A DNA stretch of 5,347 bases. Origin: a virus (taxonomy: Duplodnaviria > Heunggongvirae > Uroviricota > Caudoviricetes). The notes below the pieces were generated by a model, which worked only from the letters and a program-made list of their open reading frames with translations, was not told the DNA's origin and did no database searches. The position numbers and the translations under genes were made by a program. Shown in pieces: positions 1-5,347 of this stretch. Every line of letters starts with the position of its first letter. Position 1 is the stretch's first letter. The stretch is taken from the IMG/VR virus record IMGVR_UViG_2778261462_000003, one strand, 5' to 3'.

Positions 1-62
1 CTGCGAAATTCAGGCGAATGCTGTTTACGGGGTTTTTTACTGGTTGATACTGTTTTTGTCAT

Positions 63-93
63 GTGAGTCACCTCTGACTGAGAGTTTACTCAC
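63..93. promoter_or_regulatory. Cluster of overlapping dyad symmetries, operator-like, upstream of the first gene
   Basis: GTGAgTCAC palindrome at 63-71; AGTCA-cctc-TGACT at 66-79; GAGT-tt-ACTC at 82-91; GTGAGT (63-68) is the reverse complement of ACTCAC (88-93). Density of symmetry in a non-coding leader suggests repressor or regulator binding sites. No protein partner is identified. Confidence 0.3.
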
Positions 94-111
94 TTAGCCG
101 CGTGTCCACTA

Positions 112-139
112 TTGCTGGGTAAGATCACTTCAGTATGAT
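112..139 (+). promoter_or_regulatory. Candidate sigma70-type promoter for the rightward operon
   Basis: -35-like TTGCTG at 112-117, 16-nt spacer, -10-like TATGAT at 134-139, about 50 nt upstream of the ATG at 192. Hexamer matching by eye only. Confidence 0.2.
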
Positions 140-1699: not shown

Positions 1700-2122
1700 G
1701 TGGCAAAAGTTTTTACACAAGAAGAGCGGGAAAAAATTAAATGGCAGGTGGTGGAACTCGTGCGCCAGAGCGGCCGTGAGACGTTACGGCAACTGGAAGC
1801 TAAAACAGGTGCGACTAGATATCTGATGAGCGTTCTTGCCAGAGAGCTGGTAGCCAGTGGCGATGTATACAACTCCGGCTACGGGTTATTCCCCTCTGAA
1901 CAGGCGCGTAAGGACTGGCAAAACGCCCGCAAAAAACTCTCGAGGGCAAAGGTGAAGAAACCTGCTGTGGTTGATCCGGACCTTATCTGGTCATCACCTG
2001 ACGGAGAAATACGTCGCTACGACAGTCGCCTAAACATAATCTGTCGCGAGTGCCGGAAGAGCGAAGTTATGCAGCGCATACTGGCTTTCTATCAGGGTAA
2101 TTTTCAGGACGTGGCGCAGTGA
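1700..2122 (+). CDS. Hypothetical phage protein, 140 aa
   Basis: Track ORF with GTG start at 1700, preceded by the purine-rich aagggggac (1688-1696). Its stop TGA (2120-2122) overlaps the GTG start of the next ORF in a GTGA junction, indicating translational coupling. No Walker A motif, so it is not the expected helicase loader. Function unknown. Confidence 0.55.
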   Translation: MAKVFTQEEREKIKWQVVELVRQSGRETLRQLEAKTGATRYLMSVLARELVASGDVYNSGYGLFPSEQARKDWQNARKKLSRAKVKKPAVVDPDLIWSSPDGEIRRYDSRLNIICRECRKSEVMQRILAFYQGNFQDVAQ

Positions 2123-2565
2123 GTGCACCGGCAACCATTCTTGATATGTGCTGTGGCAGCCGCATGTTCTGGTTCGATAAGTCTGACGAACGGGCGATAT
2201 TCAGCGATATCAGAAAAGAAGGATACACATTACGCAATGGGAGACGCTTGATTATCAGCCCTGACATTATCGCAGATTTTCGTGCATTATCATTTGCAGA
2301 CGCATCTTTTTCGATGGTTGTATTAGACCCTCCGCATCTTGAGAGTGTTGGTGATAACGCCTGGATGGGAAAGAAATATGGACGGCTGAATAAAGATGCC
2401 TGGCGTGATGATTCGCGACAGAGATTTAAAGAAGCCTTTCGGGTGTTGAGGCCGCACGGCGTTCTGATTTTTTAATGGAATGAAACGCAAATACCGGTAA
2501 GCCAGATTCTGGCACTGACAGACAGAAAACCTGTTATCTGTCAACGAACAGGGAAAAAACGATAA
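2119..2565 (+). pseudogene. SAM-dependent DNA (adenine) methyltransferase-like gene, disrupted by an in-frame TAA and probably 3'-truncated
   Basis: The 118-aa track ORF (2119-2475) has a glycine-rich LDMCCGSRMFWF segment and DPPH (gac cct ccg cat, about 2326-2337), fitting the (D/N/S)PP(Y/F/W/H) motif IV of amino-methyltransferases. The TAA at 2473-2475 is followed in frame by 29 more sense codons (WNETQIPVSQILALTDRKPVICQRTGKKR) to a TAA at 2563-2565. A single change AAA to TAA would restore ...VLIFKWNETQ. The total is still too short for a complete enzyme. Confidence 0.5.
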
Positions 2566-2714
2566 AACCCACTGGATTATTTTTATGAAAGAGGCATCCA
2601 GTGAGTAGATTCGTAAGGCTACAGATACGTATATCTGAATAATTAAATTCAGTTCTGTAAATAAAATTTAATCCTTAACCGGATGGATTTCTGCACCCTC
2701 AGAACATCAGGAGG

Positions 2715-2730
2715 CCGCCCGAAAGGGCGG
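2715..2730 (+). promoter_or_regulatory. GC-rich hairpin with GAAA tetraloop between a Shine-Dalgarno sequence and a start codon
   Basis: CCGCCC (2715-2720), GAAA (2721-2724), GGGCGG (2725-2730): a perfect 6-bp stem. AGGAGG sits immediately 5' at 2709-2714 and the ATG at 2738, so the linear spacing of 23 nt is too long unless the hairpin folds. Confidence 0.35.
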
Positions 2731-2737
2731 TAGTGAA

Positions 2738-2920
2738 ATGCGAAAGTTCAAAATTATTATTGAAACGGGAATAGCTGGTGGAGATTTTGAGGATGTATTC
2801 GAAGTGGACGATGACGCAACACCTGAGGAAATTCATGACGGAGCATAAGAAATTTTCTTTAACTACTGCAATTACTCATACCACGAAATAAAAGACGATG
2901 AGGAAGAACAAAGTGGCTGA
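2738..2920 (+). pseudogene. Short acidic ORF interrupted by an in-frame TAA (ORF A)
   Basis: ATG at 2738, MRKFKIIIETGIAGGDFEDVFEVDDDATPEEIHDGA, TAA at 2846-2848, then 23 in-frame sense codons (EIFFNYCNYSYHEIKDDEEEQSG) to TGA at 2918-2920. Translated by hand; below the track's length cut-off. No recognised family. Confidence 0.3.
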
Positions 2921-3089
2921 TTTTTGTTCAGCTAAATATAACATCAGTTTTGAAGAGCGGGATGAACTATTAATGGACTATGGTGAGTTACGCGGTGGAA
3001 GTGCTGCTGATGTCGAATCCTAGCGTGATGACTATGAAGCGGGAAAAACTCCGGTCGAAGCATATTGTGATGAGTGGGGCGATGAATGA
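2898..3089 (+). pseudogene. Short ORF interrupted by an in-frame TAG (ORF B), coupled to ORF C
   Basis: ATG at 2898, MRKNKVADFCSAKYNISFEERDELLMDYGELRGGSAADVES, TAG at 3021-3023, then 21 in-frame codons (RDDYEAGKTPVEAYCDEWGDE) to TGA at 3087-3089. That TGA overlaps the ATG of the next ORF (3086-3088) in an ATGA junction. Confidence 0.3.
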
Positions 3090-3373
3090 GCGAGATTAAT
3101 TATCAGGAAGGGCATGAAACGGCGGGGCAAGCAAAACCAGTGGCATGGCGATATCGCTACGTGAAAAAAGGCGTTACGGACTTTCAGGGGAAGTAGTGGT
3201 CTGGTGACTGGAAATATGTACCGAAAAAAGAGGATTGTAACGACAGGCCGAACTATCAAATTCAGGCCTTATTCACTGCCTCACCAGTCCCAGTTACATC
3301 AGAAGAACTGGTTAAAGCTGTGCACTTTTATGAACAACTAAAACGCGAAAATCCACCAACATCCGGCAACTAG
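3086..3373 (+). pseudogene. 95-codon ORF interrupted by an in-frame TAG (ORF C)
   Basis: ATG at 3086, MSEINYQEGHETAGQAKPVAWRYRYVKKGVTDFQGK, TAG at 3194-3196, then 58 in-frame codons (WSGDWKYVPKKEDCNDRPNYQIQALFTASPVPVTSEELVKAVHFYEQLKRENPPTSGN) to TAG at 3371-3373. Looks like a real small phage protein with one nonsense codon. Family not recognised. Confidence 0.35.
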
Positions 3374-3627
3374 ATTAATGGATTAACTATGTCGGTTAAA
3401 CGACCAGCCAACTGAAAAAGCGGAAACCTGATTACAGGTTGCCAGATAAGGCAATGAGCTACCTGGCGCGGAACGGACTGATAAGTATGGGGAATGTTTT
3501 ACGATGAACCTTTAGACTAAAGAGTTTGTAACGCTATGTAAGTGATTTTTTCTGGTTTAGATATTTATATGTCCGGCCAAATTGAGGTGTGTTTAAATGT
3601 AATTGCACATTGATTGTAGGAGGAATA

Positions 3628-3807
3628 ATGAAAAACGCATTGCAGTTTTTGTTTGTTGCGTTCTGGTTGTTCGCATCATGTATGCCCATCATCTTCACAG
3701 CAAGGTATATGGAAAAAGTTGATGTTTTGATATTAATATTTGGATATATAAATGCCCTTTTTTTAGGGGTGTTCATGGCGGTCATGTGCATTGAATACTG
3801 GCGGTAA
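3628..3807 (+). CDS. Small predicted membrane protein, 59 aa, two hydrophobic helices
   Basis: ATG at 3628 is preceded by AGGAGG (3619-3624), a strong Shine-Dalgarno at good spacing; the track ORF 3589-3807 is in the same frame. Product MKNALQFLFVAFWLFASCMPIIFTARYMEKVDVLILIFGYINALFLGVFMAVMCIEYWR has two hydrophobic segments. Upstream 3540-3620 is strongly AT-rich, with TGTAAT at 3598-3603 as a possible -10. Confidence 0.5.
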   Translation: MKNALQFLFVAFWLFASCMPIIFTARYMEKVDVLILIFGYINALFLGVFMAVMCIEYWR

Positions 3808-3908
3808 ATACAGCGAACTCCATTGGTTTAGTTGGATATTTACTGTGCTGGACAAAAACGGTTTGCGGGGAAATCTTAGTTAAGTAGAATGACTGCGGGT
3901 GCTTGAGG

Positions 3909-3944
3909 CTATCTGCCTCGGGCATGGACACCAACGGCAGATAG
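3909..3944. repeat. Perfect 9-bp inverted repeat separated by 18 nt
   Basis: CTATCTGCC (3909-3917) and GGCAGATAG (3936-3944). The left arm overlaps a competing 5-bp stem, GAGGC (3905-3909) with GCCTC (3915-3919), so the two structures are mutually exclusive. Confidence 0.4.
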
Positions 3945-4037
3945 AGAAAAGCCCCAGTTAACATTACGCGTCCTGCAAGACGCTTAACATTAATCTGAGG
4001 CCAATTTCATGCTAGACACATGTAGGTTAGCCTCTTA

Positions 4038-4053
4038 CGTGCCGAAAGGCACG
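4038..4053 (+). other. Second GC-rich hairpin with GAAA tetraloop
   Basis: CGTGCC (4038-4043), GAAA (4044-4047), GGCACG (4048-4053). Same architecture as the hairpin at 2715-2730. Not followed by a T-tract. Confidence 0.3.
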
Positions 4054-4084
4054 GAGAAGCAGGCTATTGTTAACACCAAGCTGT

Positions 4085-4117
4085 AATGTCCCCTTTGAAC
4101 CATTCTAAAATGTCCCC
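4085..4117. repeat. Direct repeat AATGTCCCC (two copies, 24 bp apart) just upstream of the transposase; possible IS terminal or binding site
   Basis: AATGTCCCC at 4085-4093 and 4109-4117. No inverted copy (GGGGACATT) is present in 5261-5347. Confidence 0.3.
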
Positions 4118-4140
4118 AGACAATTCTCTGGGGGATTTTT
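4114..4140 (+). terminator. Terminator-like hairpin that sequesters the transposase ribosome-binding site
   Basis: CCCCAGA (4114-4120), loop caattc, TCTGGGG (4127-4133), then gATTTTT (T-run 4136-4140). The 3' arm contains GGGGGA (4130-4135), the only Shine-Dalgarno-like sequence for the ATG at 4142. Such folding is a known way IS elements block activation by read-through transcripts. Confidence 0.4.
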
Positions 4141-4141
4141 C

Positions 4142-5260
4142 ATGATCAAAGAGACTGTTACGATGAGTCATAAGGAACTCCACCGACTTCAGATTATTCA
4201 GGAACAAGCTGCGGCACGCATTGGCATTTCTATTCGGCAGGTTAAACGTCTGGTGCAACGGTATAGAAATGAAGGGCCTTCTGGTCTGGTTTCCCACCGA
4301 CGTGGAAAGCGTCCTAATAATTCCTTTTCTACTGAATTCAGAGCAACAGTAATTTCACTCCTCAAAGGCCGTTACGCTGATTTTGGACCTACGTTTGCGT
4401 GCGAAAAATTGCGCGAGATACACGGTTTATCTTTATCCGTTGAAACTCTCAGAAAGTGGATGATAGAAGAGGGGTTATGGCGTGAACGCCGTCGTAAAAT
4501 TGCCCGTATATATCAACGCCGCATGCGACGACCATCTTACGGTGAACTGATCCAGATTGATGGCTCACCTCATGACTGGTTTGAAAATCGAGGCCCCAGA
4601 TGTACACTGATCGTTTTCATTGATGATGCCACCAGTGCGTTGATGGCGTTGCGTTTTGTGCCTGCTGAAACAACCCGGGCTTACATGGAAACCCTCCGGG
4701 GTTACCTTAATGATCATGTCGTACCGCTCGCTCTCTACTCTGATAGACACAGTATATTCAGGGTAAATAACCCAGAGCGGGAAGGTGAGCTGACCCAGTT
4801 CACTCGTGCGATAAAGACACTGGGCATCGAGCCAATCCATGCCAACAGCCCGCAGGCAAAAGGGCGGGTAGAGCGCGCCAATCAGACACTACAGGACAGG
4901 CTGGTCAAAGAAATGCGGCTTCAGAATATCAGTGATATTGAAACAGCAAATGCATGGTTGCCGACCTTTATTGAAGCCTATAACAACCGGTTCGCTACGT
5001 CGCCTCGTACTACTGATAATGCTCATCTTGATGTGCACCATTCTGAAGAGGAACTGGGTTATATCTTCAGCCTACAGGCGAAGCGCGTTCTGTCTAAAAA
5101 TCTCACTTTCCAGTACAAAAGCAGTGCGTTTCAGGTACGCAGTGAGGGCCGGGGATATCGACTTAGGCATTCGGTTGTTACTGTATGCGAGAACTTTGAC
5201 GGTGAAATTAACGTTCTGTATGAACCGCCCCGGGTTTCCTGGAGAGTGTTTTATCTGTGA
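4142..5260 (+). CDS. DDE transposase with integrase-core (rve-like) catalytic domain, IS481/ISNCY-like
   Basis: 372-aa track ORF. N-terminal helix-turn-helix-like region (GISIRQVKRLVQRYRNEGPSGLVSHRRGKRPNN), then the catalytic triad in its usual contexts: IQIDGSPHDW, LALYSDRHSIF and KGRVERANQTLQDRL. Family assignment is from memory of ISNCY/IS481-type N-termini (MS.KEL.RL.IIQ...GLV..RGK.SN). The stop at 5258-5260 may be premature if homologs are longer. Confidence 0.75.
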   Translation: MIKETVTMSHKELHRLQIIQEQAAARIGISIRQVKRLVQRYRNEGPSGLVSHRRGKRPNNSFSTEFRATVISLLKGRYADFGPTFACEKLREIHGLSLSVETLRKWMIEEGLWRERRRKIARIYQRRMRRPSYGELIQIDGSPHDWFENRGPRCTLIVFIDDATSALMALRFVPAETTRAYMETLRGYLNDHVVPLALYSDRHSIFRVNNPEREGELTQFTRAIKTLGIEPIHANSPQAKGRVERANQTLQDRLVKEMRLQNISDIETANAWLPTFIEAYNNRFATSPRTTDNAHLDVHHSEEELGYIFSLQAKRVLSKNLTFQYKSSAFQVRSEGRGYRLRHSVVTVCENFDGEINVLYEPPRVSWRVFYL

Positions 5261-5347
5261 ACTCAGGCTGCCAGATCATCGTTTCCGATGGAAGCATAAT
5301 AAGCTTTTTCTGCTTCTGCCGGAGGAGTATGGCCCAGCCTTTCCAGC

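What the first reader, a model, noticed from the sequence alone, without database searches (positions are those of the whole stretch)
2700..4141. AT-rich accessory segment between the phage replication module and the IS: small membrane protein plus structured non-coding region, function unassigned
This stretch is visibly AT-richer than the flanking replication and transposase genes. It holds the only apparently intact gene there, a 59-aa two-helix membrane protein with a near-consensus Shine-Dalgarno. That gene is followed by about 330 bp with no convincing ORF but many stable hairpins, ending in a terminator. Small membrane protein plus adjacent structured RNA is the layout of type I toxin-antitoxin loci and of some prophage exclusion or abortive-infection modules. 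I cannot assign it to any described system from sequence alone.
Basis: partly seen in the sequence, partly recalled or inferred. Interest (0 to 1): 0.6.

Follow-up and report, generated by a model that had tools for sequence, protein, structure and literature searches.

The report
Orphaned hok/sok leader split by transposon
The "structured non-coding region" is the regulatory front half of a known hok/sok toxin-antitoxin locus in the E. coli Qin prophage, cut off from its toxin gene by a transposon that carries the relBE toxin-antitoxin genes and that repeatedly lands on the start codons of hok-family toxin genes.

Summary
The features are real. [quoted passage not shown] It keeps its promoter, the mok start and a predicted antisense Sok gene. 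Similarity to intact loci stops at the "AT" of the hok ATG (4067). At 4068 the left inverted repeat of an IS1202-family element begins, so the reported "terminator" (4113-4134) lies inside that element.

In syntenic genomes the element is 3.3 kb: transposase, flxA, ydfV, relB, relE. It has 26-bp terminal repeats and a 15-bp target duplication (GGAGAAGCAGGCTAT), and hokD follows directly. This explains the K-12 relB-relE-hokD operon.

Related copies always keep the relBE right end. Twelve of 20 distinct insertion sites are hok-family translation start regions, including pndA on an IncI plasmid.

The 59-aa ORF is not the toxin of this locus. It is probably a genuine small membrane protein that RefSeq does not annotate. 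A second clade of the same length shows dN/dS of about 0.2, and that clade also lies next to a hok remnant. Window 2738-3507 holds three nonsense-mutated phage genes.

The parts
2738..2920 (+). DUF7167 gene, a pseudogene with an in-frame TAA at 2846-2848
   Evidence: Pfam PF23768 at 50 bits and phrog_1997 at 99 bits, with the stop masked. RefSeq marks it 'internal stop' in the identical ATCC 8739 sequence. An intact 60-aa homologue is present in MLI114.
2913..3089 (+). Small phage gene (homologue of WP_000753064), a pseudogene with an in-frame TAG at 3021-3023 where the intact form has Trp
   Evidence: Frame translation compared with the intact 58-aa gene of L002.
3086..3507 (+). phrog_660-like gene, a pseudogene with several stops and a frameshift
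   Evidence: PHROG hit for the N-terminal 36 aa. RefSeq marks it 'frameshifted; internal stop' in both L001 and L002. Translation.
3628..3807 (+). ORF59: a 59-aa predicted two-helix membrane protein (SD AGGAGG at 3618-3623). Probably a genuine gene that RefSeq does not annotate; function unknown.
   Evidence: ORF listed. No family hit. Found only in E. coli and Shigella. A second clade has 41% aa identity, the same length and no gaps. dN/dS is about 0.2 with saturated synonymous sites. The antisense ORF is not conserved in clade 2. Predicted as a two-helix hairpin at pLDDT 74. Caveat: all 7 within-clade substitutions are nonsynonymous, and truncated variants exist.
3863..3890 (+). Putative hok promoter: TTGCGG (3863-3868), 16 nt, TAGAAT (3885-3890), with +1 near 3897
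   Evidence: Read from the sequence. A -10-like hexamer sits 6-7 nt upstream of the conserved GGGTGC start in the other hok leaders (alignment A4). It falls below the threshold of the consensus scan, so it is inferred.
3897..4067 (+). hok mRNA 5' leader (hokD type): the 5' hairpin, the mok SD GAGG (3997-4000), the mok ATG (4009-4011), and the hairpin and SD upstream of hok. It ends at 'AT' of the hok ATG.
   Evidence: Rfam RF01794 at 104.1 bits (cut-off 59), full model 1-157. 96-98% identical to intact loci up to 4067. Fold z = -4.66. Compensatory pairs in the 5' hairpin across 9 leaders.
4009..4086 (+). Truncated mok/hok reading frame: 19 codons of the ancestral 70-codon ORF (MLDTCRLASYVPKGTEKQA), then 6 transposon-encoded codons and a stop
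   Evidence: Translations. The intact Shigella allele reads MLNTCRLASYVPKGKEKQA-MKQQKAM..., 70 aa, Pfam HOK_GEF.
3941..4018 (-). Predicted Sok antisense RNA gene. The 5' tail is complementary to the mok start region, followed by a terminator hairpin (3950-4002) and then UUUCUCU.
   Evidence: Minus-strand fold at -32.5 kcal/mol, z = -5.48. The position matches Sok of plasmid R1 (recalled from established knowledge, not tested here). There are no expression data.
4024..4052 (-). Predicted Sok promoter: -10 TAACCT (reverse complement of 4024-4029), 17 nt, -35 GTGCCT (reverse complement of 4047-4052). Uninterrupted alleles have TTGCCT.
   Evidence: The TAnnnT pattern is conserved in all 13 aligned leaders. 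The A-to-C change at 4052 is seen only in copies that carry the insertion. Inferred.
4053..4067 (.). Left copy of the 15-bp target-site duplication GGAGAAGCAGGCTAT (the hok SD through 'AT' of the start codon)
   Evidence: The second copy directly follows the right inverted repeat in ATCC 8739 (L001 10868-10882) and in Shigella. The intact loci L002 and L082 have a single copy.
4068..4093 (+). Left terminal inverted repeat (IRL) of the IS1202-family transposon: TGTTAACACCAAGCTGTAATGTCCCC. A second ATGTCCCC motif lies 24 bp further in.
   Evidence: This is the point where the window diverges from intact hok loci. The unique best inverted match in 13.7 kb (19/26) abuts the second duplication copy. 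An 84%-identical IRL is found in a multicopy Hahella IS that makes 15-16-bp duplications.
4113..4140 (+). Hairpin and T-run inside the transposon's left end, just before the transposase ATG. It probably shields the transposase gene from read-through coming from the hok promoter (inferred).
   Evidence: Terminator-like site. Fold of 4068-4165 gives z = -3.36. It lies downstream of the IRL, so it is part of the element.
4142..5223 (+). Transposase gene (ISNCY/IS1202 family, ISEsa1-like), cut at about 5224 by an IS3-family insertion
   Evidence: NCBIfam NF033594 at 449 bits against a cut-off of 250. An intact 437-aa ORF is present in ATCC 8739. The sequence from 5224 on matches IS3-family elements.

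Best explanation
The segment belongs to a decaying stretch of the Qin-type lambdoid prophage. It holds three dead small phage genes (2738-3507) and one surviving small membrane-protein gene (ORF59, 3628-3807). [quoted passage not shown]

In the ancestral locus the hok mRNA leader folds so that hok can be translated only through the overlapping mok frame. The short-lived antisense Sok RNA pairs with the mok start region and triggers mRNA decay. This mechanism is established for plasmid R1 and is inferred for this locus.

An IS1202-family transposon inserted at the hok SD/ATG. Its parts are IRL, transposase, flxA, ydfV, relB, relE and IRR, 3.3 kb in syntenic genomes. The insertion duplicated 15 bp (GGAGAAGCAGGCTAT). 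The leader, mok start and Sok stayed on the left side, which is this window. The 51-codon hokD ORF, with a regenerated SD and ATG, ended up directly behind relE on the right side. That produced the relB-relE-hokD operon known from K-12.

The leader now runs into the transposon end and a terminator-like hairpin. As a toxin-antitoxin unit it is most likely non-functional. Sok may still be transcribed, but in this allele its -35 carries a T-to-G change.

Shown here: family membership of the leader, the breakpoint, the terminal repeats and duplications, and the independent copies. Inferred: transcription, Sok activity, and the function of the hairpin.
For: Leader identity:
- Rfam sok/hok-leader model at 104 bits. 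In intact relatives the same model ends at the hok ATG on the same strand.
- Stable fold and compensatory pairs, and a Sok-like terminator on the minus strand.

Breakpoint:
- Similarity of 96-98% to loci with an intact 51-aa or 70-aa Hok ORF stops at 4067.

Context:
- Window 2500-4200 is 100% identical to the ATCC 8739 Qin prophage.
- There the HokD protein behind relE (WP_000813254.1) is the same accession as in the uninterrupted IR53017 locus, and rem and ydfU follow in both.

Transposon ends:
- 26-bp terminal repeats matching 19/26. This is the unique best match in 13.7 kb and it abuts the second copy of the 15-bp repeat.
- Both ends start with TGT, and a 15-17-bp duplication is typical of the ISTde1 subgroup of the IS1202 family.
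- A Hahella relative is a multicopy IS with 15-16-bp duplications and a TGTCAAC right end.

Mobility:
- Copies of 2.6-6.1 kb in other genera share IRL plus transposase and relBE plus IRR. Each has its own 14-16-bp duplication.
- A 99%-identical 3.3-kb copy sits in pndA on an IncI plasmid, with the duplication TGGAGGGGCTATGAT.
Against: - There are no transcript or protein data for any part.
- The window ends inside an IS3-family insertion at about 5224. The right half of the transposon and hokD are therefore seen only in syntenic genomes, not in this genome.
- The consensus scan finds no promoter in 3400-4250. Both the hok and Sok promoters are assigned by position and by conservation among relatives.
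- The terminal repeats are imperfect (19/26).
- ISfinder lists the relative ISEsa1 as a 1609-bp IS without a target duplication, which conflicts with my boundaries unless that entry is incomplete.
- The A-to-C change at 4052 may be a neutral polymorphism. 14 of about 50 insertion-bearing prophage copies keep the A.
Confidence: 0.85

Rival explanations
1. One reading: ORF59 is the toxin (or effector) of a new type I toxin-antitoxin or abortive-infection module, and 3808-4141 encodes its regulatory RNA.
For: ORF59 is small, hydrophobic and predicted to form two helices. It lies next to structured RNA. In two diverged clades it sits immediately upstream of a hok locus or hok remnant.
Against: The RNA is a full-length match to the hok leader. 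It has its own promoter, and in intact relatives its own toxin ORF. No antisense RNA overlapping ORF59 is evident. ORF59 survives intact in 1045 genomes in which the neighbouring hok leader is deleted, so it does not need that RNA. There is no PADLOC or PHROG hit.
Confidence: 0.05
2. The leader remnant is kept because it still works as an orphan antitoxin locus. Sok made here would repress other hok mRNAs in the cell that have a similar target, for example on incoming plasmids or prophages (an anti-addiction role).
For: The whole predicted Sok gene, with its -10 and terminator, lies to the left of the insertion and is intact. The leader is 98% identical to functional-looking alleles. E. coli genomes carry a median of 2 and up to 9 related leaders.
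Against: The -35 is changed from TTGCCT to GTGCCT in this allele. K-12 lost the whole segment without known consequence (matches in K-12-type genomes begin only within ydfW). There are no expression data. Sok-target specificity among hok loci was not examined.
Confidence: 0.15
3. The 15-bp repeats and terminal repeats are incidental. Under this model relBE reached hokD by recombination between two hok loci or by plasmid integration, and the IS is an ordinary 1.6-kb ISEsa1 that happens to lie nearby.
For: ISfinder lists ISEsa1 as 1609 bp with no target duplication. Many copies share similarity only up to about 1.6 kb from the IRL. Earlier authors described the relBE integration without naming a vehicle.
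Against: No inverted match to the IRL exists near 1.6 kb. Nine or more copies of different length have the same right-end tip followed by a duplication that matches their own left flank. Duplications of 15-16 bp are also produced by the plain Hahella IS of the same family.
Confidence: 0.07
4. ORF59 is not a gene. It would be a chance ORF in T-rich DNA, which tends to encode hydrophobic residues.
For: All 7 distinct substitutions within the clade are nonsynonymous, and the ORF diverges no less than its flanks. Frameshifted and IS-cut variants are common. PGAP never calls it. One phage record annotates the opposite strand.
Against: A second clade at 59% nt identity keeps exactly 59 codons with no gaps and 19 invariant residues. 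pS is 0.70 against pN 0.35, giving dN/dS of about 0.2. The opposite-strand ORF is not conserved there. The ORF has a strong SD.
Confidence: 0.2

Closest known systems
hokD (relF) locus / relB-relE-hokD operon of the E. coli K-12 Qin prophage
   Same: It is the same prophage and the same locus. In syntenic genomes the window's leader is the missing upstream half of hokD. It has already been noted that relBE integrated into an ancestral hokD ORF of about 70 codons (Ramisetty and Santhosh 2016, as cited in PMC6379469).
   Different: K-12 has deleted this segment. There only ydfX, ydfW, flxA, ydfV, relBE and hokD remain. The leader, Sok and the left junction are therefore not visible in K-12. The papers I could search name no vehicle for the integration.
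hok/sok (parB) of plasmid R1, with Rfam RF01794 and Pfam PF01848
   Same: The leader architecture is the same: a 5' hairpin, the mok start, a hairpin before the hok SD, and an antisense RNA with a terminator hairpin opposite the mok start.
   Different: No toxin ORF and no 3' fbi element follow the leader in this window. In this allele mok and hok are in the same frame, forming a 70-codon ORF. The locus is on a prophage, not a plasmid.
hokW-sokW of Stx2 prophage Sp5 (PMC8621323)
   Same: It is a hok/sok locus carried by a lambdoid prophage. That locus has been shown to work as a toxin-antitoxin system and to aid phage release.
   Different: hokW-sokW is intact and functional. The locus here is split by a transposon.
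IS1202 family: ISTde1 subgroup, ISEsa1, and the dif-targeting ISAba32/ISAjo2 subgroup (bioRxiv 10.1101/2022.12.17.520857; PMC10132070)
   Same: The transposase family matches (NF033594). The ends start with TGT and the duplication is 15 bp. Target-specific, orientation-specific insertion is already known in this family, for dif/XerCD sites.
   Different: These elements are 2.6-6.1 kb and carry several passenger genes plus a constant relBE module at the right end. Family members are normally 1.3-2.0 kb. The preferred target is the hok-family translation start region, not dif. ISEsa1 is catalogued as 1609 bp with no target duplication.
IS-associated inactive chromosomal hok loci of E. coli K-12 (hokA, hokC and hokE with IS150/IS186; Pedersen and Gerdes 1999, recalled from memory and not checked here)
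   Same: These are hok loci in E. coli chromosomes disrupted or flanked by insertion sequences.
   Different: Those elements lie downstream of hok and carry no cargo. The element here inserts at the start codon, carries relBE, and re-expresses hok as the third gene of the relBE operon.

Membership tests
[quoted passage not shown] | hok mRNA 5' leader with the conserved sequence and structure (Rfam RF01794 at or above its gathering score) | tested here: met
   104.1 bits against 59, full-length model, window 3897-4068. Fold z = -4.66. Compensatory pairs.
[quoted passage not shown] | Hok toxin ORF of about 50 aa (Pfam PF01848) directly after the leader | tested here: not met
   The frame is cut at 4067 and ends after 6 transposon-encoded codons. 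Intact relatives have the ORF. In syntenic genomes hokD lies 3.3 kb further on, outside this window.
[quoted passage not shown] | mok reading frame whose start region is the target of Sok | tested here: met
   GAGG at 3997-4000 and ATG at 4009. 19 codons match the N-terminus of the 70-aa mok/hok ORF of the intact allele.
[quoted passage not shown] | Antisense Sok RNA gene with its own promoter and terminator | tested here: inconclusive
   A terminator hairpin (z = -5.48) followed by a U-run on the minus strand. A conserved TAnnnT -10. The -35 is GTGCCT where intact alleles have TTGCCT. No expression data.
[quoted passage not shown] | 3' fbi element that pairs with the 5' end of the full-length mRNA | tested here: not met
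   The 3' end of the locus is absent from the window, since the transposon follows at 4068.
[quoted passage not shown] | Toxicity of Hok and its repression by Sok (post-segregational killing) | not testable with these tools
   Needs expression and plasmid-loss experiments.
IS1202 family (ISNCY), ISTde1-like subgroup | DDE transposase of the family | tested here: met
   NF033594 transpos_ISNCY_2 at 449 bits against a cut-off of 250. RefSeq names it 'IS1202-like element ISEsa1 family transposase'.
IS1202 family (ISNCY), ISTde1-like subgroup | Imperfect terminal inverted repeats of 24-29 bp that begin with 5'-TGT | tested here: met
   IRL at window 4068-4093. IRR at L001 10842-10867. 19/26 match and both begin with TGT. 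Family rule taken.
IS1202 family (ISNCY), ISTde1-like subgroup | Target-site duplication of 15-17 bp | tested here: met
   15 bp in Qin and in the IncI plasmid, and 14-16 bp in seven other copies.
IS1202 family (ISNCY), ISTde1-like subgroup | Simple IS of 1.3-2.0 kb with the transposase as its only gene | tested here: not met
   The elements are 2.6-6.1 kb and carry passenger genes, with relBE constant at the right end. This is therefore a transposon-like derivative, not a plain IS.
   Small and hydrophobic: yes. The adjacent RNA belongs to hok. ORF59 persists without it. Toxicity was not tested.
DUF7167 (PF23768) | Match to the domain model over its full length | tested here: met
   50 bits against a cut-off of 24.4, with the internal stop masked. 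The gene is a pseudogene.

The most novel reading that the evidence does not exclude
The element abutting the finding belongs to an undescribed group of IS1202-family transposons. They carry relBE as a fixed right-end module with variable cargo, and they preferentially insert, mostly in one orientation, at the Shine-Dalgarno/ATG of hok-family toxin genes (hokD, R1-type hok, hokE-like, pndA). Each insertion uncouples the toxin from Sok/mok control and places it behind relE. This would be one toxin-antitoxin system travelling on a transposon that targets and rewires another. It would explain the K-12 relBEF operon and the 'no target duplication' entry for ISEsa1. A second point: ORF59 may be an overlooked small membrane protein that is an ancestral partner of prophage hok loci.
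Probability: 0.6. Interest if true: 0.75.

Novelty: new variant of a known kind. Interest (0 to 1): 0.6.

Why it matters
The segment itself is a relic of a well-known toxin-antitoxin family, so the original finding is largely explained. Its value lies in the junction it preserves, for four reasons.

1. It shows how the textbook relB-relE-hokD (relBEF) operon arose: by transposition into the hok start codon. K-12 cannot show this because it has deleted the left junction.

2. It suggests that ISEsa1-type elements are mis-delimited in IS catalogues. The unit that moves appears to include cargo and relBE.

3. It points to a second target-specific lineage in the IS1202 family. The known lineage targets dif sites. 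This one prefers hok-family start regions, with 12 of 20 distinct sites found here.

4. The relBE right-end module is present in 784 PLSDB plasmids; the one examined in detail, an IncHI2 plasmid (L086), also carries metal-transporter cargo. The element is therefore relevant to plasmid biology and to how toxin-antitoxin modules spread and interfere with one another.

In addition, ORF59 and its paralogue, which is present in 1045 of 5426 complete E. coli genomes, are candidate small membrane proteins missing from RefSeq annotation.

Tried and rejected
- tRNA genes in the hairpin-rich region: none found.
- Consensus promoter scan of 3400-4250: 0 hits. Promoters were therefore assigned by homology only.
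- ORF59 against Pfam, PHROGs, NCBIfam, PADLOC and PDB sequences: no hit.
- The word-indexed protein search found only E. coli and Shigella copies at 74% identity or more. From that, and from the all-nonsynonymous polymorphisms, I first concluded that ORF59 was probably not a gene. The exhaustive HMMER search then found the 41%-identity clade, and I reversed that conclusion.
- Searched for a right inverted repeat about 1.6 kb from the IRL, the ISEsa1 length given by ISfinder: no match.
- Tried to read Ramisetty and Santhosh 2016 (FEMS Microbiol Lett, fnv238) to see whether a transposon had been proposed. The paper is not held, and one search failed on term format.
- Rfam on the clade-2 ORF59 locus: no hok leader remains there.
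- A fold search of the two-helix model was not run, because helical hairpins give non-specific matches.
- A GCAA-like motif just 5' of the duplication is suggestive but too weak to call a recognition site.
Full report
**Observation**

The window is a piece of an E. coli Qin-type lambdoid prophage. Positions 2500-4200 are 100% identical to E. coli ATCC 8739 and many other chromosomes. There the segment lies between dicA/dicC, a YdaT-like gene, a replication gene, a DUF977 gene and a methyltransferase gene on one side and an 'ISNCY family transposase' on the other.

- GC is 0.428 for 2700-4141, against 0.48 on either side. The low values are confined to 3541-3896. The structured part, 3897-4067, is 0.51.
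- A 59-codon ORF lies at 3628-3807, with AGGAGG 4 nt upstream of the ATG.
- It has two hydrophobic stretches and a predicted two-helix hairpin at pLDDT 74.
- The region downstream holds no ORF of 60 aa or more and folds far better than shuffled sequence (z = -4.66).
- A hairpin followed by a T-run lies at 4113-4134.

**The structured region is a hok leader**

Rfam RF01794 ('sok antitoxin') matches 3897-4068 on the plus strand over the whole model, at 104.1 bits against a gathering score of 59, E = 1.3e-23. No tRNA is present.

In the intact relative MLI114 the same model ends exactly at the ATG of an annotated 51-aa Hok toxin on the same strand. The Rfam model therefore describes the hok-sense leader, and Sok itself is its antisense.

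The elements that can be placed on the sequence:
- A -10-like TAGAAT (3885-3890) lies 6 nt upstream of the conserved GGGTGC start, as in other hok leaders.
- The mok SD and ATG are at 3997-4000 and 4009-4011.
- The minus strand of 3950-4030 forms a long terminator hairpin followed by UUUCUCU (z = -5.48). Its 5' tail is complementary to the mok start. This is the arrangement of Sok in plasmid R1, which I recall from established knowledge and did not test.
- Nine diverse leaders share the 5' hairpin, with compensatory changes: AU to UA in 4 of 9, and CG to UA.

That criterion is not met, so the region is a conserved RNA element. It belongs to a known family.

**Where the toxin went**

Similarity to uninterrupted loci runs at 96-98% up to 4067, the 'AT' of the hok ATG, and then stops. 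The loci compared were MLI114, IR53017 and a Shigella flexneri contig.

The intact allele encodes a 70-codon ORF, MLNTCRLASYVPKGKEKQA-MKQQKAM.... The window keeps the first 19 codons and then reads IVNTKL-stop from foreign DNA.

In ATCC 8739, similarity to the intact locus resumes 3.3 kb further on, directly after relE, at GGAGAAGCAGGCTATG-AAG... That is hokD. Its protein accession, WP_000813254.1, is the same as in the uninterrupted IR53017 locus, and rem and ydfU follow in both.

**The intervening DNA is a transposon**

The 15 bp GGAGAAGCAGGCTAT occur on both sides of the 3,299-bp insert, at window 4053-4067 and at L001 10868-10882.

- The insert begins TGTTAACACCAAGCTGTAATGTCCCC (window 4068-4093).
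- Its reverse complement has a single best match in the whole 13.7-kb locus, 19 of 26. That match ends exactly at the second repeat copy.
- Both ends begin with TGT.
- The transposase (437 aa in ATCC 8739) is an ISNCY/IS1202-family enzyme (449 bits).
- The IS1202 family has a subgroup that makes 15-17-bp duplications and has TGT ends.
- A 62%-identical transposase in Hahella belongs to a plain 1,449-bp multicopy IS. Its IRL is 84% identical, its right end reads TGTCAAC, and it makes 15-16-bp duplications.

Between the ends lie the transposase gene, flxA, ydfV, relB and relE. The 'ydfW' of K-12 is only the 3' end of the transposase ORF. I infer that it blocks read-through from the hok promoter.

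**Is the element really mobile, and does it prefer hok?**

A scan of one genome per species found copies with 88-98% identical transposases in Klebsiella, Enterobacter, Citrobacter, Kluyvera, Leclercia, Pseudocitrobacter and other genera. They share the first 1.6 kb or so and the last 0.7 kb or so (relBE promoter, relB, relE, IRR). The middle cargo varies, for example a cytochrome b561-like protein plus a cation diffusion facilitator, or DMT-like membrane proteins plus a LysR regulator. Sizes range from 2.6 to 6.1 kb.

| Evidence | Result |
|---|---|
| Each complete copy has its own 14-16-bp duplication | Found, including in a 70%-identity Scandinavium relative |
| 99%-identical 3.3-kb copy on IncI plasmid pSA20064858.1 | Inserted at the pndA start region, duplication TGGAGGGGCTATGAT |
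| relBE-IRR module in PLSDB | 784 plasmids, mostly large conjugative ones |
| IncHI2 example | Followed by a Hok-family toxin gene |
| Distinct left flanks among the Enterobacteriaceae elements | 12 of 20 are hok-family translation start regions; 11 of those 12 are in the same orientation |
| Rfam hok-leader model | Abuts the IRL in five of the loci |

The 12 hok-type targets include hokD-type, two R1-type variants, hokE-like and pndA. A weak GCAA motif lies just 5' of the duplication, and a CAA motif sits there for the Hahella IS as well.

The transposons are far more similar to each other than the hok leaders are, so independent insertions are the parsimonious reading. Retention bias cannot be excluded: insertions into hok may simply be tolerated more often than insertions elsewhere.

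**Consequence of the insertion**

The duplication regenerates the SD and the ATG in front of the 51-codon hokD. The toxin gene becomes the third gene of the relBE operon. It loses the mok start and the Sok target, which remain in this window.

It has already been noted that relBE integrated into an ancestral hokD of about 70 codons (Ramisetty and Santhosh 2016, as cited in PMC6379469), and that relBEF is cotranscribed. I found no paper that names a transposon as the vehicle or reports hok targeting. The 2016 paper itself is not held. ISfinder lists ISEsa1 as 1,609 bp with no target duplication. That is what one would expect if the true right end lies beyond the cargo.

**State of the orphan leader**

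The leader is 98% identical to uninterrupted alleles. In this allele the predicted Sok -35 reads GTGCCT, whereas uninterrupted alleles have TTGCCT (A to C at 4052). Among IMG/VR prophage copies that carry the insertion, 35 have C and at least 14 keep A. The change therefore arose after the insertion. It could be decay or a neutral polymorphism.

As a toxin-antitoxin unit the remnant is most likely inert. Residual Sok expression is possible but untested.

**ORF59**

It has no match in Pfam, PHROGs, NCBIfam, PADLOC or PDB sequences. Close homologues occur only in E. coli and Shigella, and many are truncated. All 7 distinct within-clade substitutions are nonsynonymous. PGAP never annotates it, and one phage record annotates the opposite strand. 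On that basis I first doubted that it was a gene.

An exhaustive HMMER search then found a second clade. It is 59 aa long, aligns without gaps at 41% identity, and shares 19 invariant residues: W13, SC17-18, PII20-22, T24, FG38-39, NAL42-44, E56 and WR58-59 among them. Between the clades nucleotide identity is 59%, pS is 0.70 and pN is 0.35, giving dN/dS of about 0.2. The opposite-strand ORF is not conserved in the second clade.

That clade lies in a prophage remnant at the ttcA (Rac) attachment site. It is present in 1045 of 5426 complete genomes and is never annotated in RefSeq. A hok C-terminal remnant follows it 55 nt downstream.

ORF59 is therefore probably a genuine small membrane protein gene and an ancestral neighbour of a prophage hok locus. 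It persists where the hok leader is gone, and some hok loci lack it (IR53017). It is not a required part of hok/sok. Its function is unknown.

**The rest of the segment**

2738-2920 (DUF7167), 2913-3089 and 3086-3507 are homologues of small phage genes, each disabled by in-frame stops or frameshifts. The methyltransferase gene upstream also carries a premature stop at 2473. The window starts and ends inside IS3-family insertions. This is a decaying cryptic prophage.

**Verdict**

ORF59 is not its toxin. The 'terminator' and the 'IS' are parts of a relBE-carrying transposon whose insertion orphaned the leader.

The finding as given is largely explained by known biology. The transposon and its apparent preference for hok start regions is the part that looks new, and it is worth testing.

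Noticed in passing
window 4068-5223; L001 7569-10867; L003-L021, L034, L074, L086, L087: The 'IS' is a 3.3-kb IS1202-family transposon (transposase, flxA, ydfV, relBE) with a 15-bp target duplication. Relatives of 2.6-6.1 kb in many Enterobacteriaceae keep relBE plus the IRR as a constant right end and vary in their cargo. 12 of 20 distinct insertion sites are hok-family SD/ATG regions, including pndA on an IncI plasmid. The relBE-IRR module is in 784 PLSDB plasmids.
   Followed up: yes
L150 4001-4180 (also L149 829-1008): A paralogue of ORF59 (59 aa, 41% identity) lies in a prophage remnant at the ttcA/Rac attachment site in 1045 of 5426 complete E. coli genomes. RefSeq never annotates it. 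A hok C-terminal pseudogene fragment follows it 55 nt downstream.
   Followed up: yes
window 4052: An A-to-C change converts the predicted Sok -35 from TTGCCT to GTGCCT. It is seen only in copies that carry the insertion (35 with C and at least 14 with A among IMG/VR prophage contigs). One strain (L084) has a 1-nt deletion at the same spot.
   Followed up: partly
window 1-127 and about 5224-5347: The window begins inside one IS3-family element, which cuts the prophage upstream of the YdaT-like gene. It ends inside another IS3-family element inserted in the IS1202-family transposase gene. ATCC 8739 lacks both.
   Followed up: partly
window 2119-2610: The SAM-dependent methyltransferase gene has a premature TAA at 2473-2475. 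The frame continues as recognisable sequence with further stops, so it is another decaying gene just outside the finding.
   Followed up: partly
Rfam RF01794, as matched at window 3897-4068 and L002 5358-5528: The Rfam family named 'sok antitoxin (CssrC)' matches the hok-sense strand and ends at the hok ATG. It therefore models the hok mRNA leader and not the antisense Sok RNA. Strand calls based on it can mislead.
   Followed up: partly
one IMG/VR locus among L089-L148 (left flank ccgccggaaggcaatggaggggctatgatg): One prophage copy has a pnd-like left flank but the hokD-type right flank. The duplications do not match, which suggests recombination between two copies of the transposon sitting in different hok-family loci.
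   Followed up: no
L014 4837-4950 (minus strand): In a Kluyvera genome the transposon's left end abuts a match to the isrO Hfq-binding sRNA (Rfam RF01397, 58.8 bits). This is a non-hok target that is also a small-RNA locus.
   Followed up: no
L088 3407-3658 (PV340562.1): The phage record PhiR42_1 annotates the ORF antisense to ORF59 as a gene and two other phage records label the spot 'hornerin'. The antisense ORF is not conserved in the second ORF59 clade, so these annotations are probably wrong.
   Followed up: partly
L018 6527-7927; L023 4929 and 6395: Tandem insertions occur. In Leclercia a second, 70%-identical IS1202-family element sits directly after the first element's right end, and in Hahella two copies lie head to tail. 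This suggests that element ends, or the regenerated target, attract further insertions.
   Followed up: no
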